Of a stretch of DNA of 64,000 nucleotides, positions 20,578 through 55,082 are shown piece by piece (within the stretch, counting starts at the first letter, position 1; each line of letters opens with the position of its first letter). The notes below the pieces were generated by a model that did not search any database, was not told the origin of the DNA, and saw only the letters and a program-made list of their open reading frames with translations. Location of the stretch: the IMG/VR virus record IMGVR_UViG_3300029117_000001, positions 3,829 through 67,828 of that record. One strand, given 5' to 3'. The position numbers were made by a program, and so were the translations under genes. This DNA is from a virus.

Positions 20578-20603
20578 CACTCTTGTCTGCCCTTTATTTT
20601 TTT
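20562..20603 (+). terminator. terminator-like hairpin immediately upstream of the TMP start
   Basis: GGGCAG-19 nt-CTGCCC followed by TTTATTTTTTT; the stop codon of the preceding CDS lies in the loop. Confidence 0.5.
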
Positions 20604-20626
20604 GTAAAAAAGGAGGGACAAATAAA

Positions 20627-23600
20627 ATGGCTGACAATACCATTGATACCCTTGATATACAAATTAGCAGTAGTACAGAAAAAGCAGTACGTGCGCTGAC
20701 TAATCTTTCAAACAAACTCACAGAAGTTAATTCCGCATTAAGCGGAGTTAATACAAACGGATTACGTAGTTGTGTAAGGGAGCTTGGAAAACTAAAAGAA
20801 CTTGATATAGGGAAAATGACAAGCATTGCTGATGGAATTGGAAAATTCTCAAATTCCATAAAGACAATGGGCGGAGTAGATTATAAAGGCTCTGGTCTGA
20901 ATGCAGTTATAAACTCAATAAACAGACTTAGCCAGGTTGATGTTAGTGGATTTGATTCTGGGAAACTCGGAGAAATAATCCATAAATTATCAGGCTTATC
21001 GGAAATACCAGATGTATCTACCAGTGTTAATCGCTTTGTCAATTCAATGGCTAGATTAGCCAATTCCGGTGAATATATTGCGAATGTATCAGCTGAATTG
21101 CCTGGGCTTGGAAGAAATCTTAAATCAATTGTAGAGAGTTTTACGAGCGTTGGCGATATATCTGAACCTGTAAATAGGTTAGTTCAGTCTATTGCACAAT
21201 TGGCAAGCTCTGGAAATAAAATCGGACAAACGTCAAGCCAACTTGGAACCCTAGCAAAGGAAGTATTATCTTTCTTTGACGTGATGAAAACTGCACCTAA
21301 AATCAGTGATAACACAATCCGAATGACGGAAGCACTGGCAAAGTTGGCTAATGCAGGGGGAAAGGTAAATTCCGCTACAAATTCTATATCCAGTGCGTTT
21401 TCTAAATTATCATCTGCAACATCTAGCCTTGGTAATATTGTTAGTAAAACTTCTTCTATAATTGGAACCGGGGTAAAAGGCATTATTGGATGGTTTCAAC
21501 GTCTCGGGAATAGTAGTTCTGGAATTAAAACCGCTTCTTTTAATCTCGGAAATTTGCTTAAAACTGCTATCGGTTTTAAGGCTATTCGTGGTCTGGCAAA
21601 TTTAGGAAAAAGTGCAATTGGTTTTGGCTCTGCTATTACAGAAATCGAAAATGTTGTAGATGTTTCCTTTGGAAGCATGGCAGATGAAGCCTACAAATTT
21701 GCTTCTACGGCCAAAGAACAATTTGGATTATCAGAATTGGCAGCAAAGCAATATTCTGGAACCATGATGGCAATGATGAAATCATCTGGTGTTGCGCAAG
21801 ATGCAGCTTCTAAAATGTCAATTTCTCTTGCTGGATTAGCCGGGGATATTGCATCATTTTACAACATTGATACAGATACTGCTTTTCAGAAAATACGCTC
21901 TGGAATTTCCGGGGAAATTGAGCCTTTAAGACAATTGGGTATTAATTTATCCGTTGCAAATATGGAGGCTTATGCTCTTTCAAGGGGAATTACAACATCT
22001 TATAATGCAATGTCTCAAGCTGAAAAAGTTGCTCTTCGATACAACTATTTAATGTCAGTTACAGGAGATGTGCAAGGAGATTTCGCAAGGACATCTGGCA
22101 CCTGGGCGAACCAGGTTCGTTTGCTCACTCTTAACTTCCAGTCACTTTCCGCAGTAATTGGGCAAGGATTGATTGCCGGCATTCTTCCTGCTATTCAAGC
22201 TCTTAATGCACTTATGTCAAAACTTATGCAAGCTGCGAATGTGTTCCGTAACTTCATGTATGTATTGATGGGAAAGAAACTAAAAGGCTCGCAGAGTGGA
22301 GTTAGTGATATCGTATCTAATTTAGGTGGTATAGAAACAGCTGGTGATGACGCATCTTCTGGGCTTGATGACGCTACATCATCTGCTAAGAAACTGAAAA
22401 AGGCACTTTCCGTATTGCCATTCGACCAATTGAATCAGCTTACCGATAATTCCGATAATTCTGGAACTGCATCTAAAAGTCTTGGTTCTGGACTTGGAGA
22501 TTTGGCAGATAGTTTTTCTGGAATACAAGATTCACTGGATGAAGTTTTGACTGTTGATGAAACACCAATTAATAAATGGGCTTCTAAAATTAGAAAGGCA
22601 TTTATCAATAAAGACTGGCAGGGGCTAGGCTTTACTATTGCAGATATGATAAATGTTGGAATGGAGAAAATATACGAAGTTATTAATTGGAATAATGTTG
22701 GCCCGAAAATAACTGAATTTGTAAATGCTTTTACAACAGCATTTAATTCCATGGTTAGCGGAATTGATTTCGACTTAATGGGAAGAATGCTTGGAGCTGG
22801 AATTAACACGGCAGTAAATACCCTAAACCTGTTGCTCGGAGAGGGAGGAATAGATTTTTCCGGAATAGGGGCAAAACTGTCTCAACTTTTAAAAGGTGCT
22901 ATAAAGGAAATTGACTGGACAGGTCTTGGAAACTTAATTGGGAACAGTTTTATGGCATCTTGGAAAATGCTTTCTGGCTTTGTAAAGGATATGTCTAAAA
23001 AGGATGGTGCTGGAATTACTGGATGGGGTAAGCTTGGCACTGCTATTGGAAAAGCCTTAAATGGTGCAATAAAAAAGATAGACATGAACACAATTGCAGA
23101 TGCACTTTCTGGTTTATTAAACGGAGCGTTCGAAAGCTTAAAATCATTTACAGAAACATTTAATTGGGATGATCTCGCAACCAAGATAAGAGATGGAATC
23201 GCTAAATTCATCAAAGAAACAAACTGGAAAGAAAATGGACAGGCTCTTGGAGATTTTATATCTCACCTGTGTACCGCATTAAAAGATTCTCTCACTACAG
23301 ACACATTCTATGAGTTCGGACAAGGAGTTGGAACATTCCTTGGTGAATTGCCATGGGGTGAAATCCTTAGTACAGCAGCTGATCTGCTATTAACTGGCCT
23401 TACCAGTGCATTAAACGGATTATTCGATGGATTAGAGGAAAAGCACCCGATAGCCGGACATATTGCAGAATGGCTTACAAAAGCATTTATTGCAGTAAAA
23501 ATAGCAAATATCACAGGTATCAGTACTCTTGTTGGTTCACTTGTGGGACATATTGCGAGTAAAATAGCTGAAAAGAAAAACGCTGAAATGATTGCTGAAA

Positions 23601-25303
23601 AATTAGCAGATGTACTTGGAGATGGCACAAGTGGAGCAAAAGAAGCAATAAAAGATTTAGGGGATGCGGCAGGTTCTTCAAGCAGTAAATTTGGCTCTCT
23701 TGCTAAAGCACTTGGCCCTCTTGTAGGTGAAGCTGGACTTATCGTGGCAGTAGGAGTAGCTGCAGCTGGCGCAACCTCTCAATTGGCTGGTCTTGTTGAA
23801 ACCATGCAAGGCGGTAATGGTGTTGGAACCACATTTGGCAATACCATGAATAACTTCATTCAAACTTTACAGAGAAGAGGTGATATTCTTTCTGGATCAG
23901 CAGAGGAAATTTGGCAGTTAAAAGAAAGCCTTGAGCAAGAAGGGATGACCGCCGAGGATAAGGCAAAAGCAACACAACAATTGATTGACAAGTTGGGAGA
24001 AATGGGGGTTACATCCGACCAGGCAGAGCAAGCATTTTCTCAATTAAACCAGAAAGGTCTTATTACGGACGACATGTTTAAAATATTGTCTGATTCTATT
24101 AAAACATTGGATGATAAAACAACAAATATGTCTGGAAGTATTGACCTTAGTAAACAGTCGATTGATGATTTGTATGACACTGTTCTTCCACAATTGCAAA
24201 CACAGTTAGGACTTAGCGCAGATGAAATGGTTTCTCTTGATACAGCATTAATGGAAGCTGAAAATTCTGGTGGCACTGCACAGGATGCATTTGATAATAT
24301 CATGGCGCGCGCCAAGGAACTCGGAATCAATACAGAATCTGTAGCAAAGATTTTTGCACAAGTATTCCCAGATTCCGTGAAAGAGATGGAAACTAAGACG
24401 AAAACCTCTATCAGCAGTACAAATACTTTTGTAAAAACTGGAATGGGAAGCATATCCAAAGCTACAGGAACTGCAATGTCTGGAATTCAAACAGCAACTG
24501 AGAAAGCTATGTCTGCCGCACAGACAAAAGTAAAAACTTCCACAGAAAATATTAGTTCTGATTCTAAAACAAACTGGGGAAATTCCGCAAGTGCTGTATC
24601 GACAGCTCTCGGAACCATGGACACCGATACAAAAGATGTAATGGGTAAGGTTATGACAACCATTCAAAGTTATTGGTCTTCTGTTCTAATCAATACAAAC
24701 CAGATTTGGGAAAAGGCTTCTGGTAAAGTTGACACGGAAACTGGGAAAATGAAATCTTATACAGAAACCAATTTGTCTGGGATTTCGGATAAAATTAAAA
24801 GGCTATTTAATGTTAATCTTACATCAATTGGTCGGGAAACTGCTCAATCATTCGCTGATGGCATGAAACAAGTACATTTACCAACTCTGACTTATTATAT
24901 TTCAGAGTGGAGAAAACATGATCTTGGCGGTGGAAGAACCAGTTCTACACCAGTTTACAAGCCTAATTGGTATGCCAAAGGTGGTCTTTTCAATGGCGCA
25001 CAGGTAATTGGTATCGGTGAAGCCGGTTCCGAAGCCGTTCTTCCACTGGAAAATCCACGAACCATGAAGAAGATCGCAGACAGCATTGTTTCCAGTTCGG
25101 ACGGAAGCATGGGACTTACAAAAGAAGAAATGACAAAAGCAGTAGCCCAGGGAGTCGCAATGGCAATGAGCATGAACAGCGGAACCAAAAATCCGCAATA
25201 CATTATGAACAGCATTATTCTGGACGGAAACGAGATTGCAAAGGCTGTGACCAAAGCCCAGAATGATACGGATAGCCGTTTCAAACCATCCCCGGCATAT
25301 TGA
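20627..25303 (+). CDS. tail tape measure protein (1559 aa)
   Basis: RBS AAAAAGGAGGGAC; very long Ala/Gly/Ser-rich alpha-helical protein; conserved C-terminal motif AKGGLFNGAQVIGIGEAGSEAVLPLEN. Confidence 0.85.
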   Translation: MADNTIDTLDIQISSSTEKAVRALTNLSNKLTEVNSALSGVNTNGLRSCVRELGKLKELDIGKMTSIADGIGKFSNSIKTMGGVDYKGSGLNAVINSINRLSQVDVSGFDSGKLGEIIHKLSGLSEIPDVSTSVNRFVNSMARLANSGEYIANVSAELPGLGRNLKSIVESFTSVGDISEPVNRLVQSIAQLASSGNKIGQTSSQLGTLAKEVLSFFDVMKTAPKISDNTIRMTEALAKLANAGGKVNSATNSISSAFSKLSSATSSLGNIVSKTSSIIGTGVKGIIGWFQRLGNSSSGIKTASFNLGNLLKTAIGFKAIRGLANLGKSAIGFGSAITEIENVVDVSFGSMADEAYKFASTAKEQFGLSELAAKQYSGTMMAMMKSSGVAQDAASKMSISLAGLAGDIASFYNIDTDTAFQKIRSGISGEIEPLRQLGINLSVANMEAYALSRGITTSYNAMSQAEKVALRYNYLMSVTGDVQGDFARTSGTWANQVRLLTLNFQSLSAVIGQGLIAGILPAIQALNALMSKLMQAANVFRNFMYVLMGKKLKGSQSGVSDIVSNLGGIETAGDDASSGLDDATSSAKKLKKALSVLPFDQLNQLTDNSDNSGTASKSLGSGLGDLADSFSGIQDSLDEVLTVDETPINKWASKIRKAFINKDWQGLGFTIADMINVGMEKIYEVINWNNVGPKITEFVNAFTTAFNSMVSGIDFDLMGRMLGAGINTAVNTLNLLLGEGGIDFSGIGAKLSQLLKGAIKEIDWTGLGNLIGNSFMASWKMLSGFVKDMSKKDGAGITGWGKLGTAIGKALNGAIKKIDMNTIADALSGLLNGAFESLKSFTETFNWDDLATKIRDGIAKFIKETNWKENGQALGDFISHLCTALKDSLTTDTFYEFGQGVGTFLGELPWGEILSTAADLLLTGLTSALNGLFDGLEEKHPIAGHIAEWLTKAFIAVKIANITGISTLVGSLVGHIASKIAEKKNAEMIAEKLADVLGDGTSGAKEAIKDLGDAAGSSSSKFGSLAKALGPLVGEAGLIVAVGVAAAGATSQLAGLVETMQGGNGVGTTFGNTMNNFIQTLQRRGDILSGSAEEIWQLKESLEQEGMTAEDKAKATQQLIDKLGEMGVTSDQAEQAFSQLNQKGLITDDMFKILSDSIKTLDDKTTNMSGSIDLSKQSIDDLYDTVLPQLQTQLGLSADEMVSLDTALMEAENSGGTAQDAFDNIMARAKELGINTESVAKIFAQVFPDSVKEMETKTKTSISSTNTFVKTGMGSISKATGTAMSGIQTATEKAMSAAQTKVKTSTENISSDSKTNWGNSASAVSTALGTMDTDTKDVMGKVMTTIQSYWSSVLINTNQIWEKASGKVDTETGKMKSYTETNLSGISDKIKRLFNVNLTSIGRETAQSFADGMKQVHLPTLTYYISEWRKHDLGGGRTSSTPVYKPNWYAKGGLFNGAQVIGIGEAGSEAVLPLENPRTMKKIADSIVSSSDGSMGLTKEEMTKAVAQGVAMAMSMNSGTKNPQYIMNSIILDGNEIAKAVTKAQNDTDSRFKPSPAY

Positions 25304-25328
25304 TTTTTGACTGATTGTGTGGTATAAT
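25300..25328 (+). promoter_or_regulatory. sigma-70-type promoter with extended -10
   Basis: -35 TTGATT (25300-25305), 17-nt spacer, TGgTATAAT (25320-25328). Confidence 0.45.
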
Positions 25329-25364
25329 TTCTTCAATGAAGAAGTACACACGGTCTTGATTTTT

Positions 25365-25440
25365 GAGCCGCTAAGAAGAAATTAATATTTCTCAATTTTG
25401 AGAAATTTTTTGTCTTACTTGGCGGCTCTTTTTTATTTTA
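25365..25440 (+). terminator. long hairpin plus T-run between TMP and the HNH-fusion gene
   Basis: GAGCCGC ... GCGGCTC stem enclosing the inner palindrome GAAATTAATATTTC, followed by TTTTTTATTTT. Confidence 0.4.
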
Positions 25441-25565
25441 ACCGTTAATTTTGGTAAAACCAACAGGCTAGACCGATCATCGAAAAGCGGAAATGCCTTG
25501 CCGCCTGCCTGTTGATTTACATACAGTTCAAGGCACTCTTTTATACGAAAGGCAGGTATCAATCT

Positions 25566-26783
25566 ATGGCAAGAAAACCACTTAGCAAGAAAATCAGATT
25601 TGAAGTATTCAAAAGAGACAAATTCACATGTCAATACTGTGGAAGAATGTCACCAGACGTAATTTTGGAAGTAGACCATATTGAGCCAGTAGCAGAGGGC
25701 GGGGATAATGAGATTACAAATTTAATTACTTCGTGCCGCGACTGCAATAGAGGGAAGGGCAAAACTAGAATTTTAGATTCCAAAGCAATATCGTTTCAAC
25801 AGGAAGCATTAAAAGATCTTGCAGAGAAAAAAGAACAGTTGGAAATGATTGCTGAATGGAAGAAAGAGCTACTTGATTATGATAATATGGCAGTAAACAT
25901 GCTAACGGAATATTTTGAACAATTGACAGGGTGTGATGTAAACGATAACGGACGTAAGGAAATAGGAATATGGTTAAAAAGATTTTCAGCAGATAAAATT
26001 ATGGAAGCAATGGAAAAATCTGTAAAATCATATTGTAAAGAATTTTCGTACGATGAAATTGTAATGGCATTTTCAAAAATACCAGGAGTGTGTATTAATC
26101 ACTCAAAGGGGGATAATAAGTCAAAGTATTATTTTAATTATATAAAAAAAGTTTTAACATCACGAGGAATAGAGTTCAATCCGAAACTTTTAAAATATTA
26201 TGTTGAAACATATTTGATTACAGAAGAAGATTTTGCAGCGGAAAAGAAAAGTAAACGGTATTTAAAAATATTTGTTTCATATCTACACCCCAGATTTGAT
26301 AAAGATAAATTTGCTCAAAACTATATGATGGATAAATGCTTTGTTGGGATCGCTGATATTGACGGAGAAAAGAGCATAGAAAATCTTAAATATGGGCTTG
26401 ATTTAGAAAACAAAGGTTATTTCTTTTCAGATAGATACTCTCCGAAAAATAGAGTTAGTTTGATTCCTTATCTCAATGGCTTTACAGAACTGTTAAGAGA
26501 ATATTATAGAGAATATTATCAAACATATAATGAGCCTCATCCTGTTTTAACTACCGAACAGGGATTAAGGCTTTTAAATCATTATGCGTCAAATAAATAT
26601 TGGGCGAACTGTGTTACAAAAGAAGACTATTGTAATATGTTTTCAATGCTTAAATTGAGTAAAGAATATGGTTGGAAGGAGCAAATGCCAGAAGCTATGT
26701 TTACAAGTGGTGGTACTATTTGTGACGAGAAAATTGCAGAATATGAAAGCGAGGAAAGAAAAAAGCATGATTTTCGACCTTAA
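25566..26783 (+). CDS. HNH endonuclease domain fused to a ~330-aa uncharacterised C-terminal domain
   Basis: N-terminus FEVFKRDKFTCQYCG ... EVDHIEPVAEGGDNEITNLITSCRDCNRGKG is a canonical HNH (H-N-H with a Cys4 zinc site); the remaining ~330 aa have no recognisable motif. Confidence 0.6.
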   Translation: MARKPLSKKIRFEVFKRDKFTCQYCGRMSPDVILEVDHIEPVAEGGDNEITNLITSCRDCNRGKGKTRILDSKAISFQQEALKDLAEKKEQLEMIAEWKKELLDYDNMAVNMLTEYFEQLTGCDVNDNGRKEIGIWLKRFSADKIMEAMEKSVKSYCKEFSYDEIVMAFSKIPGVCINHSKGDNKSKYYFNYIKKVLTSRGIEFNPKLLKYYVETYLITEEDFAAEKKSKRYLKIFVSYLHPRFDKDKFAQNYMMDKCFVGIADIDGEKSIENLKYGLDLENKGYFFSDRYSPKNRVSLIPYLNGFTELLREYYREYYQTYNEPHPVLTTEQGLRLLNHYASNKYWANCVTKEDYCNMFSMLKLSKEYGWKEQMPEAMFTSGGTICDEKIAEYESEERKKHDFRP

Positions 26784-26799
26784 TGTTTTGCTGTGTAAA

Positions 26800-26900
26800 A
26801 ACTGTAACATTACAGTAACGTTACAGTAACGGTATAGAATAAGAAATAGAAATAGAATTAGATTAAGATATAGATTTAGATTAAGAAAAAGAGAAAGAAT
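26800..26900. repeat. tandem/low-complexity repeat block
   Basis: TTACAGTAACG tandem duplication containing the 10-bp palindrome GTAACGTTAC, followed by AGAATAAGAAATAGAAATAGAATTAGATTAAGATATAGATTTAGATTAAGAAAAAGAGAAAGAA. Confidence 0.5.
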
Positions 26901-26975
26901 TATATTTTGAATAATATCTAACGATATTATTATGTCAGATAAATCTGACGCAGAATGGGACAGGGAGGACACACT

Positions 26976-27419
26976 ATGATATTTTGGCTATCAGTAATCA
27001 TTTTTGCGGTTGGCGTTGTTATTCTGATTGGAAATAGAATAGGCGAATCTTTAAGCTACGAATATGAGTATTCAAGTGTGAGTGGATTTATATTGTCTTT
27101 TGGCGTGGTAATTTCTTTCATCAGTGTAGTATGGTTCCTGGTAGCCGGATTGATTTTATTTCTCACCAAAACCAATGTTACCGCCACCAGACAGGCAAAT
27201 GCCGAGAAATACAAAGCATTGACTTACAAACTGGAAAGTGAAGCTTGCCGAGATCAATTCGGACTTCTAAACAAAGAAATTATTGACGAGGTACAGAGAT
27301 GGAATGTAAAAGTAACTTACTACAAAGCAATGGAGGATAACTTCTGGATTGGAATTTATTATCCAGATGTGTACGGTGATCTTGGAACGATTGATTATGA
27401 GACATATGAGGGTAATTAA
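26976..27419 (+). CDS. integral membrane protein (2-3 TM helices)
   Basis: RBS CAGGGAGGA 6 nt upstream of ATG 26976; hydrophobic helices IFWLSVIIFAVGVVILI and ILSFGVVISFISVVWFLVAGLILFL. Confidence 0.45.
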   Translation: MIFWLSVIIFAVGVVILIGNRIGESLSYEYEYSSVSGFILSFGVVISFISVVWFLVAGLILFLTKTNVTATRQANAEKYKALTYKLESEACRDQFGLLNKEIIDEVQRWNVKVTYYKAMEDNFWIGIYYPDVYGDLGTIDYETYEGN

Positions 27420-27538
27420 TTGACATGATAAAATAATCAAATTCGTTTCAAAACCTCTCGCCCGATAAAATATAGGCACAAGCCAAGAAAATTGATTTTT
27501 TAGAAAAGAAATTAATTAATTGTGGAGAATTAAAACAT

Positions 27539-27697
27539 ATGAGCAAAATAGGAACAGAACTTCCAACAGAATATTCAGACCGTTTTGATAAATTGCGCCA
27601 AAATCGGGCTGAGATGAGTTTTTACAAATATGGCACAGCAAAGGATAATTTCGGGGAGAAAGTGCCGGAGTTGCCGGAACACCAATTAATCAGCTGA
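27539..27697 (+). CDS. small hypothetical protein (52 aa)
   Basis: Short ORF with a weak RBS; below the ORF-track cutoff. Confidence 0.2.
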   Translation: MSKIGTELPTEYSDRFDKLRQNRAEMSFYKYGTAKDNFGEKVPELPEHQLIS

Positions 27698-27713
27698 AGG
27701 AGAAGTGGTATTG

Positions 27714-27929
27714 ATGGATTTCAAGCAGACTTACTTTTCCATCTGGCAGGAAATATGGAACCTCCACAAGAAGTATGCCTTTATCTCAAAGGACGATATT
27801 GCTAAGTGGGAAAATCTCACCATGGAAGCAAGCCGGATTCACGATAAATACGCTGATTCTTTCGGTGCGAAATTTGCCGAAGCACTTTTGTTTGCCGTAA
27901 CTGCGGAAATTGATAGAAAAGCGAAATAG
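27714..27929 (+). CDS. hypothetical small protein
   Basis: RBS GAAGGAGAAG; a GTG at 27705 is an alternative start. Confidence 0.35.
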   Translation: MDFKQTYFSIWQEIWNLHKKYAFISKDDIAKWENLTMEASRIHDKYADSFGAKFAEALLFAVTAEIDRKAK

Positions 27930-27992
27930 TGCTTTCGGAATGCGTCCCAAAGTGGTACAATGTGGGTATCAAATATTGGGAGGTACGTATGT

Positions 27993-28919
27993 ATGAAGAA
28001 AGTAAAAAGAGTTATTGCTGCTGCAACCGTGATGGCGAGTTTGGTGACTGTGACACCTGTCATGGCGTTTAAGTGGGAAATCGGACAAAAGGAAGAAACT
28101 AAAGAAACAACACAAATAGAACCAGCAACAGAAGAAGAAACAGAAGCGGTATTTTCTGTATGCAAGGATTTGTGGGAAGACTTGGAATTGAAAACTTATA
28201 AAATGAGCCATTCAGAGATATTTGGAGATTCTGATGATTCTGCGGATACAGAAATCCACTACGAAGATGTAATCAAAAAAATATATTCAGAAAAAATTAA
28301 TGATTATCCAGACTTTTCAATGGGAGACAAGGTAAAAATAAATGGATATGTGTTACAGACCATAGAGCTTCCGACAGAACAAGAATGGCAAGCAAATAGT
28401 GTTAATAAGGCTGGCGCATATCGTGTTGAAATTTCAATTGATAATTCTATAACATATACAGGATATGATGAATTTGCAATGTTCGTAAGAAGCAATAACT
28501 CAAATGTATTAAAACTACAGGTGGGAGATTACGTTACTGTTGAGGGAATATTTTTAAAACCAGATTCAATTTCTGCGCAAGATTATATATATGATTGCAC
28601 TATCTCAAAATGCGAAGATACACCACAAGTACCGCTTGGAAAGAAAAATGCGCTGAAAGAAGCTATAGATTATTTAGATATAAATTCGTTTTCTTATAAT
28701 GGAATAATTCAGCAACTGAAATTTTCACAATATACAGATGAAGAAGCTAAATATGCAGCAGACTTTTGTGGAGCAAGTTGGAATAGACAAGCTGAAAAAT
28801 CTGCTAAAAGTTATTTGGATATTACAAGTTTTTCAAGAGATGGGCTGATTCAGCAATTGGAATTTGATGGATTTACTTCTGAACAGGCAGAGTATGGGGT
28901 CACTCAAGTAGGGTATTAA
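27993..28919 (+). CDS. secreted Ltp-repeat protein (superinfection-exclusion lipoprotein Ltp family of S. thermophilus phage TP-J34)
   Basis: Signal peptide MKKVKRVIAAATVMASLVTVTPVMA; two C-terminal repeats (AIDYLDINSFSYNGIIQQLKFSQYTDEEAKYAADF / SYLDITSFSRDGLIQQLEFDGFTSEQAEYGV) match the Ltp repeat signature. No lipobox Cys is present. Confidence 0.6.
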   Translation: MKKVKRVIAAATVMASLVTVTPVMAFKWEIGQKEETKETTQIEPATEEETEAVFSVCKDLWEDLELKTYKMSHSEIFGDSDDSADTEIHYEDVIKKIYSEKINDYPDFSMGDKVKINGYVLQTIELPTEQEWQANSVNKAGAYRVEISIDNSITYTGYDEFAMFVRSNNSNVLKLQVGDYVTVEGIFLKPDSISAQDYIYDCTISKCEDTPQVPLGKKNALKEAIDYLDINSFSYNGIIQQLKFSQYTDEEAKYAADFCGASWNRQAEKSAKSYLDITSFSRDGLIQQLEFDGFTSEQAEYGVTQVGY

Positions 28920-28926
28920 AATGATT

Positions 28927-28958
28927 AGGCTAGGGATTTCTCCCTAGCCTTTATTTTA
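28927..28958. terminator. bidirectional terminator between convergent genes
   Basis: Perfect AGGCTAGGGA/TCCCTAGCCT hairpin followed by TTATTTTAG. Confidence 0.55.
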
Positions 28959-29852
28959 GTTCATCCAATTATATGTGTAAGAATCATTAACATATACTTC
29001 AAATTTATCTGGCGTTATTGTATCGTAATTCCTATCATGAGGGAATCTAAATTCAAGATAAGCAGTTGAACCAGGATTTTCAACGTGAGCAAATTGATAA
29101 TCATATCCAACTATTCTTCCATCTTTGTAAAATACGACTGCAATAGTTGTGTAAGAGTTTCTTTTTCCATTATTAGTTACTTTTACCATAACATTTCCAG
29201 CTCCAAAATTAGCTGAATAGTGTATTCCGGAATTGTTCAAAATAAGGCTTGAAGAAGCCTTTTCAATTTTTAAATTAACTTTGAAAGAATCCCAGGTCTT
29301 GTCAGCGTTCCAACCTTGAAGCGCACATTTTGAATGTGGAGCAAAAGCGTATATACTATCAGAATCTGTTCCAATCATAGAACCATTCAAAAAATAAACA
29401 AACTCAACTCTAACACGTACTGCATAATCATAATGATTTTCAAGAATTGCCACCGCTCCATACGGTGTAGATTCTGCATGATATGTAACAATATTCTTCT
29501 TACCGCTACTGTTAGTGCTAGGATTTCCTCCAAAACCACCATTGCCGTTAGAAACCTTTTTCACGGTAACTTTACAAGTGTATTTCTTTTTGCCGACCTT
29601 TGCAGTAATCGTTGCGGATCCTTTTTTCTTAGCTTTTACTCGTCCTTTAGAAGATACCGTTGCAACAGACTTCTTGCTACTTGTCCATTTTACTTTTCTT
29701 TTTGTTCCAGTCACTTTTAATTGTAATGTTTGCCCGACTTTTAAAGTGGCTTTTTTCTTGTTGATTTTGCCAGCCGCCGATACTGGAACTGCCATACAGA
29801 CAATCAGTAACATTATGGTCAAAACTGCCAGTAACTTTTTGGATTTTTTCAT
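28956..29852 (-). CDS. secreted Big_2 (bacterial Ig-like group 2) domain protein
   Basis: Minus strand; RBS GGGAGGAAAACGC; signal peptide MKKSKKLLAVLTIMLLIVCMAVPVSA; KATLKVGQTLQLKVTGTKRKVKWTSSKKSVATVSSKGRVKAKKKGSATITAKVGKKKYTCKVTV is a Big_2 fold signature. Confidence 0.6.
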   Translation of the reverse strand: MKKSKKLLAVLTIMLLIVCMAVPVSAAGKINKKKATLKVGQTLQLKVTGTKRKVKWTSSKKSVATVSSKGRVKAKKKGSATITAKVGKKKYTCKVTVKKVSNGNGGFGGNPSTNSSGKKNIVTYHAESTPYGAVAILENHYDYAVRVRVEFVYFLNGSMIGTDSDSIYAFAPHSKCALQGWNADKTWDSFKVNLKIEKASSSLILNNSGIHYSANFGAGNVMVKVTNNGKRNSYTTIAVVFYKDGRIVGYDYQFAHVENPGSTAYLEFRFPHDRNYDTITPDKFEVYVNDSYTYNWMN

Positions 29853-29934
29853 ATGCGTTTTCCTCCCTAAATCAGTATGATATACATATTTTACCACTCC
29901 AAAATGAATAGTGGAATAGGAAATTTGAAAAAAA

Positions 29935-29962
29935 TAACGATTCATCAAAATGACGAATCGTC
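29935..29962. other. 11-bp-stem palindrome; terminator-like for minus-strand transcripts
   Basis: ACGATTCATCA-AAA-TGACGAATCGT (one mismatch); on the minus strand it is followed by a T-run. Confidence 0.35.
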
Positions 29963-30053
29963 AGTAAAAAAAACTGTCGTGAATTTCAAGACGGTTAATA
30001 GCTGTTCCACAAATTTATGGAGCTGTTTTTTCACAAAAAAATGAAAAATACTC

Positions 30054-30103
30054 TTGACATTGTACGTACAAACTGATATATTAAAGATGTACAAAATGTA
30101 CAC
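30054..30103 (+). promoter_or_regulatory. promoter with TGTACA-type operator repeats
   Basis: -35 TTGACA, palindrome TGTACGTACA in the spacer, -10 TATATT, then the direct repeats TGTACAAAATGTACA. Confidence 0.5.
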
Positions 30104-30125
30104 ACAATCTGAAAGGAGTGATAAA

Positions 30126-30302
30126 ATGTCTCCCAAAATGGGGCAAAAGTTGAAGGACAATCCTAGAAACGTAAGATTGGAAGTCAGACTTACACAGGAA
30201 GAAAATGCACTATTGGAAGAATGTGCAAAAAGACTTCAAGTCACAAAGACAAAAGTTATCACAAAGGGAATCGAATTAGTAGATAAAGATTCTCGCAACT
30301 GA
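30126..30302 (+). CDS. small ribbon-helix-helix-like regulator
   Basis: RBS AAAGGAGTGATAAAATG; 58 aa; NVRLEVRLTQEENALLEECAKRL fits an RHH (CopG/Arc-like) beta-alpha-alpha fold. Confidence 0.4.
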   Translation: MSPKMGQKLKDNPRNVRLEVRLTQEENALLEECAKRLQVTKTKVITKGIELVDKDSRN

Positions 30303-30426
30303 AAAACAGCCGTAGCACCGACCAAAGCACAAACGACTGTTTAAGCAACCAGAAGTCTCACATCTGGTAATCAATATCTTATCATTTGTGAGACTTCTTT
30401 TCAAGAGAAAAGGAGTATTTTTTTAT

Positions 30427-31188
30427 ATGAACGAAATCACAATTAACACAGCAAACCGGACACCTATCGAAATCGCACTTGGAATTGATGAAGAGGGCAT
30501 GACTACTGCCAGAAAGTTATATGCCTTTTTAGAATTGGATTCTAGCAATTATTCAAGATGGTGCAAGAGCAACATTACAGGAAATGAATTTGCAGAGGAA
30601 AACGTTGATTATTGGGCATTCGTCATTAATGACGAGACGCCGACAGGTGGTGTTATTCAGAGAGAAGATTACAAGCTTTCTGCCAGCTTTGCAAAGAAAC
30701 TTTCTATGCAGTCAAAGAGTGCCAAAGGTGAACAAGCCAGACAATATTTTCTCAAAGTAGAGGACAAATTAAAAGAAACAGTTCGCCACCCAGTACCAAT
30801 GACCATCCCCGAACAGATTCAGCTTCTAGCACAGGGAAACGTAGAACTGAATAAGCGGATTGACGATATTCAGACAGAGTTTGAGACTTTGAAAATGGAT
30901 TTGCCGATTCTCCCGATTGAAGCGGAGAAAATCACGGAAGCCGTAAAGAGAAAAGGAACGCTGGTACTTGGTGGCAAGGAATCCAATGCTTACAATAGCC
31001 GTTCCATTCGCCAGAAGGTTTACAGTAACATTCATTCCAATCTGCGCTACCAGTTCCAGGTCAAAAGCTACAAGGCAATTAAGAGAAGCCAGGTAGAACA
31101 GGCAGTCAAGATTATTGGAGAATACAAACCGCCAGTTTTCTTGAAGAATGAGATTGATACAGAAAATGCACAGCAGAGATTCTTTTAA
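30427..31188 (+). CDS. phage antirepressor (AntA-like N-terminal domain plus ORF6C C-terminal domain)
   Basis: RBS AAAGGAG; domain pattern typical of AntA/AntB antirepressors with a C-terminal ORF6C-type region. Confidence 0.55.
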   Translation: MNEITINTANRTPIEIALGIDEEGMTTARKLYAFLELDSSNYSRWCKSNITGNEFAEENVDYWAFVINDETPTGGVIQREDYKLSASFAKKLSMQSKSAKGEQARQYFLKVEDKLKETVRHPVPMTIPEQIQLLAQGNVELNKRIDDIQTEFETLKMDLPILPIEAEKITEAVKRKGTLVLGGKESNAYNSRSIRQKVYSNIHSNLRYQFQVKSYKAIKRSQVEQAVKIIGEYKPPVFLKNEIDTENAQQRFF

Positions 31189-31224
31189 TTAGATTTTTAC
31201 AGGGATACACAGGAGGAAAATAAA

Positions 31225-31476
31225 ATGACAGAAAATATGGATAGAGAAGACGCAATGTTCGAAGTAGAGGACACTATTGATAAAATCAAGTTTCTTTTGG
31301 ACGATTTCATGGAACAGTATGGATTTAATAGCACAGAAAAAATGGACGAACTGAAAAAATGGCAGTTTGCATATAACAAGCAATTTATGACAATGAAATT
31401 GTTGATTTTATGCGATTATGCCAATAAAGCAAGACAGAAATTTAAGGCTCTTGAATCTATGGAGCAGAAAGCGTGA
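31225..31476 (+). CDS. hypothetical protein
   Basis: RBS ACAGGAGGAAAATAAAATG. Confidence 0.4.
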   Translation: MTENMDREDAMFEVEDTIDKIKFLLDDFMEQYGFNSTEKMDELKKWQFAYNKQFMTMKLLILCDYANKARQKFKALESMEQKA

Positions 31477-31480
31477 TCGT

Positions 31481-31777
31481 ATGGCAAATAGAATCCAGTT
31501 CAATGACTTTCAGAAAAAGAGTGTGTACGCCAAGTGCAACGGAAAATGTGCGATATGCGGTAAGCCTGTCAAATTCAAGAAAATGACAATCGACCACATT
31601 ATGCCGTTGTCTCGTGGCGGCACAAATGATATTAAGAATCTGCAACTGGCGTGTAAGCGTTGCAACAGCATGAAGAGTAACATGACAATGGATGATATGA
31701 TGGGGCAGATTTCCGAGATTTTGAAGTATAACCGCAAACAGAAGTTGATTAGAGTGTTGGGAGGAATTATAGAATGA
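31481..31777 (+). CDS. HNH endonuclease
   Basis: CNGKCAICGKP ... DHIMPLSRGGTNDIKNLQLACKRCNSMK: HNH with a Cys4 site. Confidence 0.65.
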   Translation: MANRIQFNDFQKKSVYAKCNGKCAICGKPVKFKKMTIDHIMPLSRGGTNDIKNLQLACKRCNSMKSNMTMDDMMGQISEILKYNRKQKLIRVLGGIIE

Positions 31778-31786
31778 TACCATAGT

Positions 31787-31811
31787 ATACTGAATGATAC
31801 TTTCAACGTAT
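31787..31811 (+). promoter_or_regulatory. copy C of the 25-nt recurring motif, followed by an extended -10
   Basis: GATACCATAGTATACTGAATGATAC, then TGtTATAAT at about 31817-31825, then a hairpin plus T-run before the Rha gene. Confidence 0.4.
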
Positions 31812-31913
31812 GTTATAATATAAAATCATAATAAGCAAATTTTAAAGCGTTTACCTTTTGGGGTAGGCGCTTTTTTGTTGCCAAAAAATAAATCATAAAG
31901 GAGATATGAATTT

Positions 31914-32573
31914 ATGCTGGTAGAAATCGTTGGAAAAAGATACGAAGAGAAACTTATTACAACAAGTCTGAAAGTTGCAGAGGTTTTTGAGAAAGAACAT
32001 AAGAATGTTCTACAATCAATTGAAAATCTCGTGGCTGATAATTCAGCTGCCAAATTTTTTCAACTTACAACATATAAGAACCGTGGAAAAGAATATCCAA
32101 TGTACGAAATGGATAGAGATGGTTTTTCCTTGCTCGTAATGGGCTTTACTGGTGAAAAAGCCTTACAATGGAAAATTAAGTATATTGAAGCCTTCAACAA
32201 GATGGAAAGCGAGTTAAAACGCTTATATACAGAACGCCAGCAATGGCAAATTGAACGTGACAAGGGTGTTGTTATTCGGCATATCCTCACAGATACAATT
32301 AAGATGAAAATAACAGAAAGCCCAAATAAGAGATTTGCTTATCCAAATTATACAAATCTGATTTATCGCAATTTGTTCGGAAAGACAGCAAAAGAGCTTG
32401 AAAGTGATTATGGAGTAAAAGCAAAAGAGAATCTTAGAGATTTCTTCACAGGTGATGACTTGGCGAAAGTTCAGAGTATGGAAATGCTTGTAAGTAGCCT
32501 TATTAATTGCGGATGGGGATATCAGCAAATTAAAGAATTTATCCGAAGCGAAGCAACAAAAATGATTGCATGA
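31914..32573 (+). CDS. phage regulatory protein Rha
   Basis: N-terminus TTSLKVAEVFEKEHKNVLQSIENL is the Rha family signature; RBS AAAGGAGATATG. Confidence 0.7.
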   Translation: MLVEIVGKRYEEKLITTSLKVAEVFEKEHKNVLQSIENLVADNSAAKFFQLTTYKNRGKEYPMYEMDRDGFSLLVMGFTGEKALQWKIKYIEAFNKMESELKRLYTERQQWQIERDKGVVIRHILTDTIKMKITESPNKRFAYPNYTNLIYRNLFGKTAKELESDYGVKAKENLRDFFTGDDLAKVQSMEMLVSSLINCGWGYQQIKEFIRSEATKMIA

Positions 32574-32583
32574 GGGTTTGCAT

Positions 32584-32949
32584 ATGGCAGAAGTATTTCT
32601 TAAAGTGGATGGGGTAGCATTGCCCTGTCCTTCTTCTTTTACATGGGGATTACAGGATATATCGGCATCAGAATCCGGCAGAACAGACGATACGACCATG
32701 CATAAAAATAGAGTTGGACAGAAACGAAAGCTGTCTGTAGGTTGGAATGGTCCAGACTGGGACACTGCTTGCAAAATTATACAGGCAGTAAATCCAGAGT
32801 ACATACAGGTCACATATCCAGACTTGCTATCTGCAAATAAGCACGAAACCAGAACATTTTATGTTGGTGACAGGGAATCACCATTTAAGTGCTGGTGGGT
32901 TGGAAATGAGCGCATGGAAGGACTTAGTTTTGACTTTATCGAGAGGTAA
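32584..32949 (+). CDS. tail component (distal tail protein-like position; 122 aa)
   Basis: Immediately precedes the large tail-fibre gene with a 3-nt gap; function assigned by synteny only. Confidence 0.35.
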   Translation: MAEVFLKVDGVALPCPSSFTWGLQDISASESGRTDDTTMHKNRVGQKRKLSVGWNGPDWDTACKIIQAVNPEYIQVTYPDLLSANKHETRTFYVGDRESPFKCWWVGNERMEGLSFDFIER

Positions 32950-44604: not shown

Positions 44605-44605
44605 A

Positions 44606-54481: not shown

Positions 54482-54483
54482 AA

Positions 54484-55080: not shown

Positions 55081-55082
55081 TA

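What the first reader, a model, noticed from the sequence alone, without database searches (positions are those of the whole stretch)
25300..32573. A ~7 kb regulatory and moron island splits the tail module between the TMP and distal-tail genes
Siphovirus TMP genes are normally followed directly by the distal tail and tail-associated lysin genes. Here TMP ends at 25303 and the distal tail and fibre genes resume at 32584. In between lie a promoter and terminator-like leader, an HNH-fusion protein, repeat DNA, a membrane protein, an Ltp-type superinfection-exclusion protein, a convergent secreted Big_2 protein, an operator-controlled RHH gene, an AntA/ORF6C antirepressor, a second HNH nuclease and Rha. 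The content looks like an immunity or superinfection-exclusion region of a different phage, or a satellite-like element, recombined into the structural operon.
Basis: partly seen in the sequence, partly recalled or inferred. Interest (0 to 1): 0.6.

Follow-up and report, generated by a model that had tools for sequence, protein, structure and literature searches.

The report
Hypervariable accessory-gene hotspot splitting tail operon
About 7 kb of optional genes (homing nucleases, secreted "keep-out" proteins, small antirepressor switches) sits between two tail genes of an abundant uncultured gut phage, and about 65 relatives show it is an old mix-and-match recombination hotspot, not a one-off foreign insertion.

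Summary
The tape-measure gene ends at 25303. A Dit-like tail-tube-fold gene starts at 32584.

TMP and the Dit-like gene are contiguous in three divergent relatives, so the DNA is accessory. But it is not a single acquired immunity region or a satellite. All 56 close relatives with both flanks carry an island at this junction (5.3-9.5 kb), and so do 9 of 12 distant relatives. Gene order differs in 55 of 57 islands, which draw on about 50 recurrent gene families arranged in ordered slots. The slots are separated by short linkers conserved in 54-56 of 56 genomes.

Base and codon composition match the rest of the phage. There are no junction repeats and no integrase.

My reading: this is a lineage-wide array of self-contained accessory cassettes ("morons") lying between the terminator of one late transcription unit and the promoter-like element of the next. 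It is reshuffled by homologous recombination at the linkers, probably helped by the resident homing endonucleases. The closest known analogue is the sieA-mnt-arc-ant region of phage P22. This is a new variant of a known kind.

The parts
20504..25303 (+). Tape measure protein gene (left flank). Its 3' end, from about 24968, is part of the conserved left anchor.
   Evidence: phrog_1535 E 3e-92. Positions 24968-25439 are present in 54-56 of 56 relatives.
25300..25439 (+). Conserved non-coding left anchor. It holds a sigma-70-like promoter (TTGATT-17-TGgTATAAT, 25300-25328) and a long hairpin with a T-run (25365-25439). Probably the terminator of the TMP transcription unit, or a short leader or sRNA.
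   Evidence: -36.9 kcal/mol, z -6.2. Nearly invariant across relatives: nucleotide diversity 0.014-0.06, no higher than the adjacent TMP coding sequence. Sequences diverge immediately after the T-run.
25461..25533 (+). int-alpA-type structured RNA motif, forming the 5' leader of the first cassette.
   Evidence: Rfam RF02996, 45.4 bits against a gathering score of 35.8. The same motif, with compensatory changes, precedes four different endonuclease genes in relatives. My own covariance model finds it only inside islands.
25566..26783 (+). Free-standing HNH endonuclease with a roughly 300-aa C-terminal extension (slot A cassette).
   Evidence: Pfam HNH E 3e-14; phrog_16986 and phrog_14314. Present in only 12 of 56 relatives, where it is replaced by other nucleases or by Rha.
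26804..26900 (.). Repeat DNA: GTAACGTTACA x2.5 (palindromic) and an 18-nt unit x3. Function unknown.
26955..27419 (+). Small membrane protein (two hydrophobic segments by eye).
   Evidence: Translation; weak phrog_944 'membrane protein' match. Present in 40 of 57 islands.
27539..27697 (+). Truncated copy (52 aa) of a gene that is 110 aa in relatives.
   Evidence: Relative to L004 the window lacks about 150 nt here.
27705..27929 (+). 74-aa helical ORF. It is the only island gene present in all close relatives, and acts as an internal anchor.
   Evidence: Present in 56 of 56 relatives by blastn. No Pfam, PHROG or PADLOC match.
27993..28919 (+). Secreted protein with a C-terminal double Ltp repeat (superinfection-exclusion type). 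Slot D cassette.
   Evidence: Pfam Lipoprotein_Ltp E 1e-24; phrog_4980. Aligns to PDB 4EQQ with E 1.7e-9. The signal-peptide coding part is shared with alternative alleles.
28927..28950 (.). Bidirectional intrinsic terminator between the two convergent secreted-protein genes.
   Evidence: 10 bp stem, 6 GC pairs, T-runs on both strands.
28956..29852 (-). Convergent secreted Big_2-domain protein (slot E cassette).
   Evidence: Pfam Big_2 E 6e-12. Signal peptide MKKSKKLLAVLTIMLLIVCMAVPVSA.
30054..30104 (+). Promoter-like site (TTGACA-17-TATATT) overlapped by TGTAC palindromes. Putative operators.
   Evidence: (11 of 12 consensus positions, with TG).
30126..30302 (+). 58-aa RHH-like repressor directly upstream of the antirepressor gene.
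   Evidence: phrog_876 E 4e-14; weak Pfam NikA-like and MobC_2 matches. A profile of the family hits CopG with E about 0.02.
30427..31188 (+). AntA + ORF6C antirepressor-type protein (slot F cassette).
   Evidence: Pfam ORF6C E 9e-32 and AntA E 1e-12. Relatives carry P22_AR_N-ORF6C, Bro-N-ORF6C or AntA-only alleles at this position.
31225..31476 (+). 83-aa ORF of unknown function that travels with the following HNH gene.
   Evidence: Homologues sit next to the HNH gene in distant relatives L083 and L085.
31418..31777 (+). Small free-standing HNH endonuclease.
   Evidence: Pfam HNH and HNH_5, E about 5e-17. Present in 45 of 57 islands.
31773..31887 (+). Conserved right-hand module. It holds a 25-nt motif (GATACC..TATACTGAA..ATAC, 31776-31800), an extended -10 (TGTTATAAT) and the terminator hairpin 31844-31873. 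Putative late promoter and leader that restarts tail-gene transcription.
   Evidence: Present in 56 of 56 relatives. The motif occurs three times in the window, all on the plus strand upstream of structural genes (6493, 18247, 31776), with 0 expected by chance. It occurs exactly once in each of 80 relative loci, upstream of the Dit-like gene.
31914..32573 (+). Rha-family regulator (slot I cassette). Optional.
   Evidence: Pfam Phage_pRha E 3e-30. Present, absent or replaced in relatives.
32584..32949 (+). Minimal Dit-like tail-tube-fold protein (DUF6711). The right flank begins at about 32569 with its ribosome-binding site.
32953..37578 (+). Large tail-tip or fibre protein (right flank).
   Evidence: phrog_6616 E 3e-201. 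418 relatives in IMG/VR.

Best explanation
The 7.1 kb between the tape-measure terminator (25439) and the ribosome-binding site of the Dit-like gene (32569) is a lineage-wide hyperplastic accessory region. It lies in the break between two late transcription units of a roughly 80-kb, probably temperate siphophage of Lachnospiraceae (Blautia-like hosts).

**Organisation.** The region is an ordered array of about nine slots. Each slot holds one of several alternative self-contained cassettes ('morons'):
- free-standing homing-type endonucleases (HNH, HNH_3, T5orf172, GIY-YIG-like), often behind an int-alpA-type RNA leader;
- membrane, lipoprotein or secreted proteins, including an Ltp-domain superinfection-exclusion-type protein and Big_2 proteins;
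- RHH-repressor-plus-antirepressor pairs (AntA, P22_AR_N, Bro-N or ORF6N fused to ORF6C);
- Rha regulators.

**Shown here.** The position is conserved while the content varies. Short conserved linkers bound the slots. Linkage holds only between neighbouring slots. The composition is native to the phage.

**Inferred.**
(i) Cassettes are exchanged among co-infecting or resident relatives by homologous recombination at the linkers.
(ii) Double-strand breaks made by the resident endonucleases stimulate this exchange and drag neighbouring cassettes along (co-conversion).
(iii) The cassettes are expressed from their own promoters, independently of late transcription. From a prophage, the secreted and membrane proteins would block DNA entry of competing phages. 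The RHH-controlled antirepressors and Rha proteins would act on repressors of resident or incoming relatives.
(iv) Tail-tip genes are transcribed from the conserved promoter-like module at 31776-31873. This is what makes the site tolerant of insertions.
For: **Position conserved, content variable**
- 56 of 56 close relatives with both flanks have an island of 5.3-9.5 kb.
- There are 55 different gene orders among 57 islands, and 72 protein clusters, about 50 of them recurrent.
- Distant relatives (tail protein 41-50% identical, Dit-like protein 49-81%) also carry islands at this junction, drawing on the same families: L083, L085, L086, L087; L172, L173-175, L176.
- L001, L082 and L171 have TMP directly followed by the Dit-like gene.

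**Linkers**
- Positions 24968-25439, 27428-27527, 27714-27971, 31773-31887 and 32571 onward are present in 54-56 of 56 relatives. The DNA between them is present in only 5-51.
- The left junction diverges exactly after the terminator T-run.
- The right junction is at CATGAGGG, 15 nt before the Dit-like ATG.

**Recent exchange**
- Single cassettes are 98-99% identical next to a backbone that is 91% identical.
- Adjacent slots are linked (p<0.001). Most non-adjacent slot pairs are at equilibrium (p 0.15-0.9).

**Moron architecture**
- Terminator-like sites number 15 against 4.7 +/- 2.5 expected. They include a bidirectional terminator between the convergent genes and terminators after the HNH and RHH genes.
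- Promoter-like sites precede the RHH gene and lie at the left anchor.

**Native composition:**. **No att-like repeats:**

**Late-promoter-like motif:** three copies upstream of structural genes, with 0 expected by chance. One copy per relative, always upstream of the Dit-like gene.

**Temperate, Lachnospiraceae host**
- A 589-aa large serine recombinase lies in the closest relative's contig, about 7 kb past the window end.
- Relatives sit in Blautia and Lachnospiraceae MAG contigs of up to 229 kb.

**Precedent:** P22 carries sieA, mnt, arc and ant between ejection gene 16 and tailspike gene 9.
Against: - There are no expression or activity data. Promoters and terminators are consensus matches, and promoter-like sites are not enriched overall (32 against 28.8 expected).
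- Endonuclease activity, target sites and any role in exchange are untested. Homologous recombination alone could explain the mosaic.
- The Ltp-domain protein lacks the lipobox of the prototype and has an unrelated roughly 210-aa N-terminal part, so an exclusion function is only an inference.
- No island protein matches a known defence system beyond generic HNH similarity.
- The slots were derived from greedy ORF calls and 35%-identity clusters. Some minus-strand 'genes' (clusters 12, 14, 21, 24, 33) look like antisense artefacts.
- Most relatives come from one IMG/VR data set (3300045988). The 10-kb flank limit hides islands longer than about 9.6 kb.
- The conserved promoter-then-terminator modules could have another role, such as an sRNA or an antitermination-controlled leader.
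- Slot A and slot I, which are not adjacent, are significantly associated (p<0.001). This is the one exception to distance-dependent linkage.
Confidence: 0.72

Rival explanations
1. One-off acquisition. A foreign immunity or superinfection-exclusion region, or a satellite-like element, recombined as a block into the structural operon of this particular phage.
For: TMP and the Dit-like gene are contiguous in L001, L082 and L171. The gene content is typical of lysogeny-control regions.
Against: - An island is present at the same junction in 56 of 56 close relatives and 9 of 12 distant relatives.
- There are 55 gene orders in 57 islands, with internal conserved linkers.
- GC and codon usage are native.
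- There are no junction repeats.
- The island has no integrase. In the window, the only hint of a replication or packaging gene is a sub-threshold DnaB_2 match in the HNH protein.
Confidence: 0.04
2. Selfish-DNA sink. The junction is simply a permissive gap where homing endonuclease genes and their hitch-hikers accumulate. The cargo has no adaptive role for phage or lysogen, and the diversity reflects nuclease turnover alone.
For: - At least five nuclease families compete for slot A, and a second HNH gene sits near the right end.
- One gene is truncated in the window.
- A further GIY-YIG/NUMOD3 gene sits just upstream of TMP in L172.
Against: - The cargo families (RHH+Ant, Zn-ribbon membrane protein, Rha, HNH) persist at this junction across phages whose tail proteins are only 41-50% identical. 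This argues for retention by selection.
- The cargo ORFs are intact, have signal peptides and carry their own regulatory signals.
- Some islands have cargo but no recognisable nuclease (L173-L176).
Confidence: 0.14
3. A dedicated secondary-immunity (immI-like) control region. The functional core is the RHH-Ant pair that governs prophage induction or anti-immunity. The remaining genes are incidental neighbours.
For: - An RHH gene directly precedes an Ant-type gene in the window and in most relatives.
- The same core (RHH-Ant-HNH) is the whole island in L172.
- The P22 immI region has the same layout and a comparable position.
Against: - Five of 57 islands lack any Ant-type gene, as do L176 and possibly L175.
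- The window has another Rha gene and a Bro-N/KilAC antirepressor elsewhere (42268-42891 and 43460-44248).
- There is no Mnt-like second repressor.
- There is no sequence similarity to P22 Ant or Arc.
Confidence: 0.1

Closest known systems
Phage P22 sieA-mnt-arc-ant (immI) region, between ejection gene 16 and tailspike gene 9
   Same: - Accessory DNA inside the late structural region, immediately upstream of a tail gene.
- A superinfection-exclusion gene on the opposite strand.
- A small RHH repressor directly upstream of, and co-oriented with, an antirepressor gene.
- Operators overlapping the promoter, and a terminator before the tail gene.
- Some relatives carry a P22_AR_N-domain allele.
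   Different: - The host phage is a siphophage, not a podophage, and the gap lies between TMP and Dit.
- The island is 7 kb against 2.9 kb in P22.
- Content is combinatorially variable, in multiple slots.
- It carries homing endonucleases and a structured RNA leader.
- No Mnt or sar counterpart was found.
- There is no pairwise similarity to P22 Ant or Arc.
Morons of lambdoid phages (HK97/HK022 morons; lambda lom and bor). Concept of Juhala, Hendrix and colleagues, 2000 (own knowledge).
   Same: Optional genes with their own promoter and terminator, inserted between genes of the late operon. They are absent from some relatives and often encode membrane or surface proteins expressed from the prophage.
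   Different: Here there is not a single gene but an ordered array of about nine exchangeable slots with conserved linkers. Every close relative carries it.
Hyperplastic regions of T4-type phages, with PeSL-flanked cassettes and mutually exclusive homing endonuclease genes such as mobE/hef and segH (own knowledge: Comeau 2007, Arbiol 2010, Sandegren 2005)
   Same: Fixed genomic positions where small cassettes, bounded by conserved promoter and stem-loop sequences, are swapped among relatives. Different free-standing nucleases replace each other at the same site.
   Different: - This phage is probably temperate and infects a Firmicutes host.
- The cargo is exclusion and antirepressor genes rather than early host-takeover genes.
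- The site splits the tail operon.
Defence or accessory hotspots of P2-like phages and P4-like satellites (Rousset et al. 2022, own knowledge)
   Same: Conserved flanks with highly variable cargo between them. The cargo is presumed to act in inter-virus competition.
   Different: No recognised defence system was detected (PADLOC). The cargo is dominated by regulators, surface proteins and nucleases.
Ltp of Streptococcus thermophilus phage TP-J34
   Same: The C-terminal double helix-turn-helix repeat domain is homologous (Pfam E 1e-24; PDB 4EQQ E 1.7e-9).
   Different: TP-J34 Ltp is a 142-aa lipoprotein encoded in the lysogeny module, and there TMP is directly followed by the next tail gene (PMC3952083). 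The protein here is 308 aa, has a signal peptide without a lipobox cysteine and an unrelated N-terminal half, and lies in the tail operon.

Membership tests
Moron / accessory cassette | Absent from some otherwise syntenic relatives | tested here: met
   L001, L082 and L171 have TMP directly followed by the Dit-like gene. Individual cassettes are present in 5-51 of 56 close relatives.
Moron / accessory cassette | Own promoter and terminator flanking the gene(s) | tested here: inconclusive
   Terminator-like sites are enriched (15 against 4.7 +/- 2.5) and lie at cassette ends. Promoter-like sites precede the RHH gene and lie at the left anchor, but promoter matches are not enriched overall. There are no transcript data.
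Moron / accessory cassette | Expressed from the prophage independently of late genes | not testable with these tools
   Needs RNA-seq of a lysogen.
P22 immI-type antirepressor module | Antirepressor gene (Ant-type domains) | tested here: met
   AntA E 1e-12 and ORF6C E 9e-32. Alleles with P22_AR_N or Bro-N occur in relatives.
P22 immI-type antirepressor module | Arc-like RHH repressor immediately upstream and co-transcribed, with operators overlapping the promoter | tested here: inconclusive
   phrog_876 'transcriptional repressor' E 4e-14. A family profile hits CopG with E about 0.02. TGTAC palindromes overlap the promoter-like site. Binding was not tested.
P22 immI-type antirepressor module | Second, divergent repressor (Mnt) and antisense sar RNA | tested here: not met
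   The divergent neighbour is a secreted Big_2 protein. Rfam finds no antisense RNA there.
P22 immI-type antirepressor module | Sequence homology to P22 Ant and Arc | tested here: not met
   BLASTP E 0.08 and 0.04, over short segments only.
Ltp-type superinfection exclusion protein | Tandem Ltp (HTH) repeat domain | tested here: met
   Pfam PF07553, two stretches, E 1e-24. Aligns to both repeats of 4EQQ.
Ltp-type superinfection exclusion protein | Lipoprotein signal peptide with lipobox cysteine | tested here: not met
   The signal peptide MKKVKRVIAAATVMASLVTVTPVMA|FKW has no cysteine.
Ltp-type superinfection exclusion protein | Blocks DNA injection of incoming phage | not testable with these tools
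   Needs expression in a host and a phage challenge.
Phage satellite / PICI-like or integrative element | Integrase or other recombinase, and flanking att repeats | tested here: not met
   No recombinase domain in any island ORF. The longest junction repeat is 10 nt; shuffles give a mean of 9.3 and a maximum of 13.
Phage satellite / PICI-like or integrative element | Own replication and packaging-redirection genes; foreign composition | tested here: not met
   None detected apart from a sub-threshold DnaB_2 match in the HNH protein. GC and codon usage are native.
Free-standing homing endonuclease gene | Nuclease catalytic domain of a homing family (HNH or GIY-YIG) | tested here: met
   HNH, HNH_5 and HNH_4 in both window genes. 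HNH_3, T5orf172/MUG113 and HNH in alternative alleles.
Free-standing homing endonuclease gene | Presence/absence or replacement polymorphism at a fixed site among close relatives | tested here: met
   Slot A holds cluster 17 (12 islands), 29 (7), 27 (7), 40 (2), 35 (1), or non-nuclease genes.
Free-standing homing endonuclease gene | Cleaves the nuclease-free allele near the insertion site | not testable with these tools
   Needs in vitro cleavage assays or co-infection crosses.
Distal tail protein (Dit) | Tail-tube-like beta-sandwich fold | tested here: met
Distal tail protein (Dit) | Encoded directly after TMP and before the tail hub or fibre gene | tested here: met
   In the island-free relatives L001, L082 and L171. 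Always followed by the large tail protein.
Distal tail protein (Dit) | Forms the hexameric ring that caps the tube | not testable with these tools
   Needs a virion structure. The fold alone does not separate Dit from a tube-initiator paralogue.
int-alpA RNA (Rfam RF02996) | Score above the curated gathering threshold | tested here: met
   45.4-49 bits against 35.8, in the window and in six relatives.
int-alpA RNA (Rfam RF02996) | Base pairs supported by compensatory changes | tested here: met
   Between the two variants there are three double changes in P1 and one in P3, with the helices maintained. Only three distinct sequences were compared, so support is modest.
Known anti-phage defence systems (PADLOC) | Match to a system-specific protein model, with its partner genes present | tested here: not met
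   Only generic HNH-motif hits (PtuB, Cas9 HNH, REase_II) without partners, plus a candidate-family hit for Rha (PDC-S22).

The most novel reading that the evidence does not exclude
The junction is not merely tolerant of insertions. It is an organised, integrase-free 'cassette exchanger'. Homing endonucleases, held in check by an int-alpA-type leader RNA, cut nuclease-free alleles in co-resident relatives. Repair across the conserved linkers then drives rapid, slot-by-slot reassortment of exclusion and antirepressor genes. In effect this would be a diversity-generating system for inter-phage warfare, embedded in the tail operon of a widespread gut phage clade. A corollary is that the int-alpA RNA family, whose function is unknown, would be a cis-regulator of mobile nuclease and DNA-binding cassettes.
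Probability: 0.2. Interest if true: 0.72.

Novelty: new variant of a known kind. Interest (0 to 1): 0.5.

Why it matters
The phage belongs to a large, uncultured lineage common in human gut metagenomes. The tail protein alone has 418 relatives in IMG/VR.

The comparison shows that such phages keep a fixed site inside the tail operon where exclusion proteins, antirepressor switches and homing nucleases are reshuffled. Almost every genome sampled carries a different set. That identifies where to look for the genes that decide competition between related prophages of Lachnospiraceae. It also yields a ready-made catalogue of about 50 candidate families for testing.

It gives a natural system for asking whether homing endonucleases drive the exchange of neighbouring cargo. 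It adds a possible genomic context for the orphan int-alpA RNA motif.

For annotation pipelines it is a caution: a split tail module with regulatory genes in it does not imply a chimeric assembly or a satellite.

Tried and rejected
- **Named relatives.** Megablast of 20 kb against GenBank phages found only two short unannotated fragments. tblastn with TerL found no cultured relative above about 50% identity.
- **Foreign composition.** Rejected.
- **att-like junction repeats.** None above chance.
- **Internal repeats as cassette boundaries (PeSL-like).** The repeat finder found no recurring boundary sequence within the window's island. The boundaries are conserved between genomes, not repeated within one.
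- **Known defence systems.** Rejected.
- **Sequence-level PDB matches** for the Dit-like protein, the tail protein N-terminus and the RHH protein: none.
- **Is the HNH protein's C-terminal extension a fusion with the c10/c20 gene that follows nucleases in relatives?** Only a 29-aa local match to cluster 20 (E 0.003) and nothing to cluster 10. Not established.
- **Is the int-alpA motif exclusive to nuclease genes?** No. In L087 it precedes an 87-aa Zn-finger ORF plus a c10-like gene.
- **Does the Ltp allele co-vary with the TMP C-terminal allele?** By inspection, Ltp occurs with TMP 3' ends of 67-98% identity. No obvious link, and not tested formally.
- **Literature searches** for a described TMP-Dit hotspot found nothing specific.

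Full report
**1. What is in the window**

The window is most of a roughly 80-kb phage genome. It encodes a large terminase (4374-6068), a portal (6589-8085), a major head protein (9278-10312) and a tape-measure protein (20504-25303). Further on are an amidase endolysin (38678-39604), RecT, an SbcC-like protein, SSBs, methyltransferases and a reverse transcriptase. Nearly all genes are on the plus strand.

The tape-measure gene ends at 25303. The next gene with a structural signature starts at 32584. It is 121 aa and matches Pfam DUF6711 and phrog_1194. A 1541-aa 'tail protein' follows (phrog_6616, E 3e-201).

**2.

Pfam and PHROG scans confirm the following:
- an HNH nuclease with a long C-terminal extension;
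- a small membrane protein;
- a protein with two Ltp repeats, which aligns to the TP-J34 Ltp structure 4EQQ with E 1.7e-9;
- a convergent Big_2 protein with a signal peptide;
- a small RHH-like gene;
- an AntA+ORF6C antirepressor;
- a second HNH nuclease;
- Rha.

The non-coding features are also there. A promoter-like site directly overlaps the TMP stop codon, and a strong hairpin with a T-run follows it. Tandem and palindromic repeats lie at 26804-26900. TGTAC palindromes overlap a near-consensus promoter in front of the RHH gene.

Terminator-like sites are three times more frequent than in shuffled sequence.

Reading the sequence moves several start codons downstream: HNH to 25566, Ltp-domain protein to 27993, Big_2 to 29852, RHH to 30126 and Ant to 30427.

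**3. Relatives change the interpretation**

The tail protein has 418 relatives in IMG/VR. I kept the 80 best (92-97% identical), from contigs mostly 42-86 kb long, the longest about 77-86 kb.

In all 56 loci that reach back to the TMP 3' end, the gap between TMP and the Dit-like gene is 5.3-9.5 kb. The upper bound is set by the 10-kb flank. The island is therefore a property of the lineage.

Its content is not fixed:
- ORF clustering gives 72 families. Only the 74-aa ORF at 27705-27929 is universal.
- There are 55 different gene orders among 57 islands.
- The families fall into ordered slots, each with alternative occupants.

After TMP comes an HNH, HNH_3, T5orf172 or GIY-YIG-like nuclease, or a Rha gene. 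Next are DNA-binding proteins of 340-390 aa, then small membrane or lipoprotein genes (DUF5052, DUF1653). The universal ORF follows. After it sits a secreted or membrane protein (Ltp-domain, Zn-ribbon membrane protein, Big_2, others) facing a convergent secreted protein. Then comes an RHH gene followed by an AntA-, P22_AR_N- or Bro-N-ORF6C protein. The small HNH gene follows, and then Rha or nothing.

**4. The slots are bounded by conserved linkers**

A blastn coverage profile shows five stretches present in 54-56 of 56 relatives:
- 24968-25439: the TMP end, promoter-like site and terminator hairpin;
- 27428-27527;
- 27714-27971;
- 31773-31887;
- 32571 onward.

The DNA in between is shared by only 5-51 genomes.

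At the left junction all sequences are nearly identical up to the T-run. They then split into at least four unrelated classes. At the right junction the common sequence resumes at CATGAGGG, 15 nt before the Dit-like ATG.

The signal-peptide coding segments of the two secreted-protein slots are also shared between different mature domains.

Single cassettes can be 98-99% identical between two genomes whose backbone is 91% identical. Allele associations are strong between neighbouring slots. They vanish for most non-neighbours (p 0.15-0.9), although slots A and I are an exception. This is the signature of frequent homologous recombination, not of one insertion.

**5. The hotspot is old**

I looked at phages whose tail protein is 41-50% identical, or whose Dit-like protein is 49-81% identical. 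Many come from Blautia or Lachnospiraceae MAGs, one on a 229-kb contig.

Nine loci carry an island at the same junction: L083, L085, L086, L087, L172, L173-175 and L176. These islands are 1.9-9.2 kb and are built from the same families: a Zn-ribbon membrane protein, RHH, Ant-type genes, the small HNH with its companion ORF, a GIY-YIG-like nuclease, c10-like proteins and Rha.

Three contigs that encode an identical Dit-like protein still differ in island content.

Three loci (L001, L082, L171) have TMP followed by the Dit-like gene after 0 to about 70 nt, or at most about 270 nt in L082. The DNA is therefore dispensable for the virion, but the site has been occupied repeatedly or continuously across a broad clade.

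**6. Tests of the foreign-block or satellite idea**

All of these tests are negative:
- Island GC is 35.5% against 37.6% for the window. Codon usage is as close to the backbone as random backbone gene sets are to each other.
- The longest direct repeat shared by the two junction regions is 10 nt. Shuffles give a mean of 9.3 and a maximum of 13.
- No integrase or packaging gene is present. The only replication-gene hint is a sub-threshold DnaB_2 match in the HNH protein.
- PADLOC reports only generic HNH similarity.

**7. Why this site?**

The right-hand linker carries a 25-nt motif, GATACC-NN-AR-TATACTGAA-NN-ATAC. It occurs three times in the window, always on the plus strand in intergenic DNA upstream of structural genes: 6493 before the portal gene, 18247 within the tail module, and 31776. 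None are expected by chance. It occurs exactly once in each of 80 relative loci, always upstream of the Dit-like gene.

In copies 1 and 3 the motif is followed by a -10-like element, a short leader and a hairpin with a T-run.

I read these as late-promoter modules. That would make the late region several transcription units. The island would lie in the gap between the terminator of the TMP unit (25365-25439) and the promoter of the tail-tip unit. Insertions there do not break an operon. This step is inference. The promoter-then-terminator layout could also indicate antitermination control or short RNAs.

**8. Probable function**

A 589-aa large serine recombinase lies about 7 kb beyond the window end in the closest relative. 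Relatives sit in large bacterial contigs. The lineage is therefore probably temperate.

In TP-J34, Ltp is made from the prophage and blocks DNA injection (PMC3952083). From my own knowledge (Bebeacua et al. 2013), its target is the incoming phage's tape-measure protein.

By analogy, the secreted and membrane cassettes are candidates for superinfection exclusion. The RHH-Ant pairs and Rha genes are candidates for interfering with repressors of related prophages.

The layout parallels P22, where sieA, mnt, arc and ant lie between ejection gene 16 and tailspike gene 9. There is no sequence similarity to P22 Ant or Arc, and no Mnt or sar counterpart.

The nucleases show the replacement polymorphism typical of free-standing homing endonuclease genes. 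They may promote exchange of neighbouring cassettes, but that is untested.

**9. A structured RNA**

Rfam's int-alpA motif scores above threshold at 25461-25533. It forms the 5' leader of the HNH gene.

In relatives the same motif precedes HNH_3, GIY-YIG-like and another HNH gene. In two of these genomes it sits deep inside the island, so it travels with the gene. A diverged variant keeps the helices through four double substitutions.

A covariance model built from these copies finds further copies only inside the islands of two Blautia-MAG relatives. It finds none in 45 loci covering the replication region. One of the new copies precedes a Zn-finger ORF rather than a nuclease.

**10. Verdict**

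The feature is a conserved, combinatorially variable accessory-gene hotspot in the tail operon of a prevalent gut phage clade.

Morons, the P22 immI region and hyperplastic regions with homing nucleases are established concepts. What is new is the location between TMP and Dit, the ordered multi-slot structure with conserved linkers, the near-saturating diversity, and the association with an int-alpA-type RNA. I score it as a new variant of a known kind, with interest 0.5.

Noticed in passing
window 53882-56695: A diversity-generating retroelement. The reverse transcriptase is at 55649-56695 (phrog_1423 E 1e-81). An adenine-rich template repeat lies at 55479-55553. Two variable repeats (81-84% identical to the template repeat) lie at 54368-54442 and 54970-55044, at the 3' ends of two adjacent roughly 200-aa genes (53882-54481 and 54484-55080). 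The first of these has a weak DUF6273 match.
   Followed up: partly
window 44558-45880: A TnpB-like 'transposase' (phrog_506 E 1e-109) is followed immediately by a RAGATH-18 RNA (RF03064, 57.7 bits, 45807-45880). This looks like an IS605-family TnpB with its guide-RNA region, sitting inside the phage early region.
   Followed up: no
window 6493-6517, 18247-18271, 31776-31800: A 25-nt motif, GATACCNNARTATACTGAANNATAC, occurs three times. All copies are on the plus strand and intergenic, upstream of structural genes, with 0 expected by chance. It is probably a late-promoter or activator site. Copies 1 and 3 are followed by a hairpin and a T-run before the gene.
   Followed up: partly
window 25461-25533; L029:1840-1907, L068:2029-2096, L085:7094-7148, L087:7770-7823: An int-alpA-type RNA motif (Rfam RF02996, function unknown) serves as the leader of free-standing endonuclease or DNA-binding cassettes. 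It shows compensatory changes and was not found elsewhere in these genomes.
   Followed up: partly
window 39632-40333 (-): A phage-encoded response regulator with receiver and LytTR DNA-binding domains, on the minus strand just after the endolysin gene. It could link the lysis-lysogeny decision to a host or phage signal.
   Followed up: no
window 42268-42891 and 43460-44248: A second Rha gene and a Bro-N/KilAC antirepressor lie outside the island. The two Rha genes share a 113-nt stretch at 74% identity (32094-32206 and 42418-42530).
   Followed up: no
window 23672-24563: The tape-measure gene is itself mosaic. This internal segment does not align between the window and several close relatives whose flanking TMP sequence is 92-98% identical. 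TMP C-terminal identity among relatives ranges from 67% to 99%.
   Followed up: no
window 27539-27697: A 52-aa remnant of a gene that is 110 aa in relatives. The window lacks about 150 nt relative to L004.
   Followed up: partly
window 56680-57447: A metallo-beta-lactamase-fold protein next to the reverse transcriptase, with a sub-threshold match to the anti-Pycsar nuclease Apyc1 (E 5e-4, 19.9 bits against a cut-off of 50). It is a possible anti-defence gene.
   Followed up: no
window 448-516: A tRNA called as Cys with the unusual anticodon ACA (ARAGORN; Rfam tRNA 42.3 bits), near the start of the window.
   Followed up: no
L068:19497-19684, L053:19066-19253, L026:19820-20006 (minus strand): FuFi-1 RNA (RF02986, 133-140 bits) is present about 9.5 kb downstream of the tail gene start in some close relatives. 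It is absent from the window at the gathering threshold, which suggests another variable locus.
   Followed up: no
window 15182-17293 and 3537-4298: A 703-aa protein in the head-tail region has a weak GDSL-lipase-like C-terminal domain. An SPFH/Band-7 protein is encoded just upstream of the terminase.
   Followed up: no
L093:17925-19694: A large serine recombinase (Resolvase + Recombinase + Zn_ribbon_recom, 589 aa) lies in the closest relative's contig, about 7 kb beyond the window end. This is the basis for calling the lineage probably temperate.
   Followed up: partly
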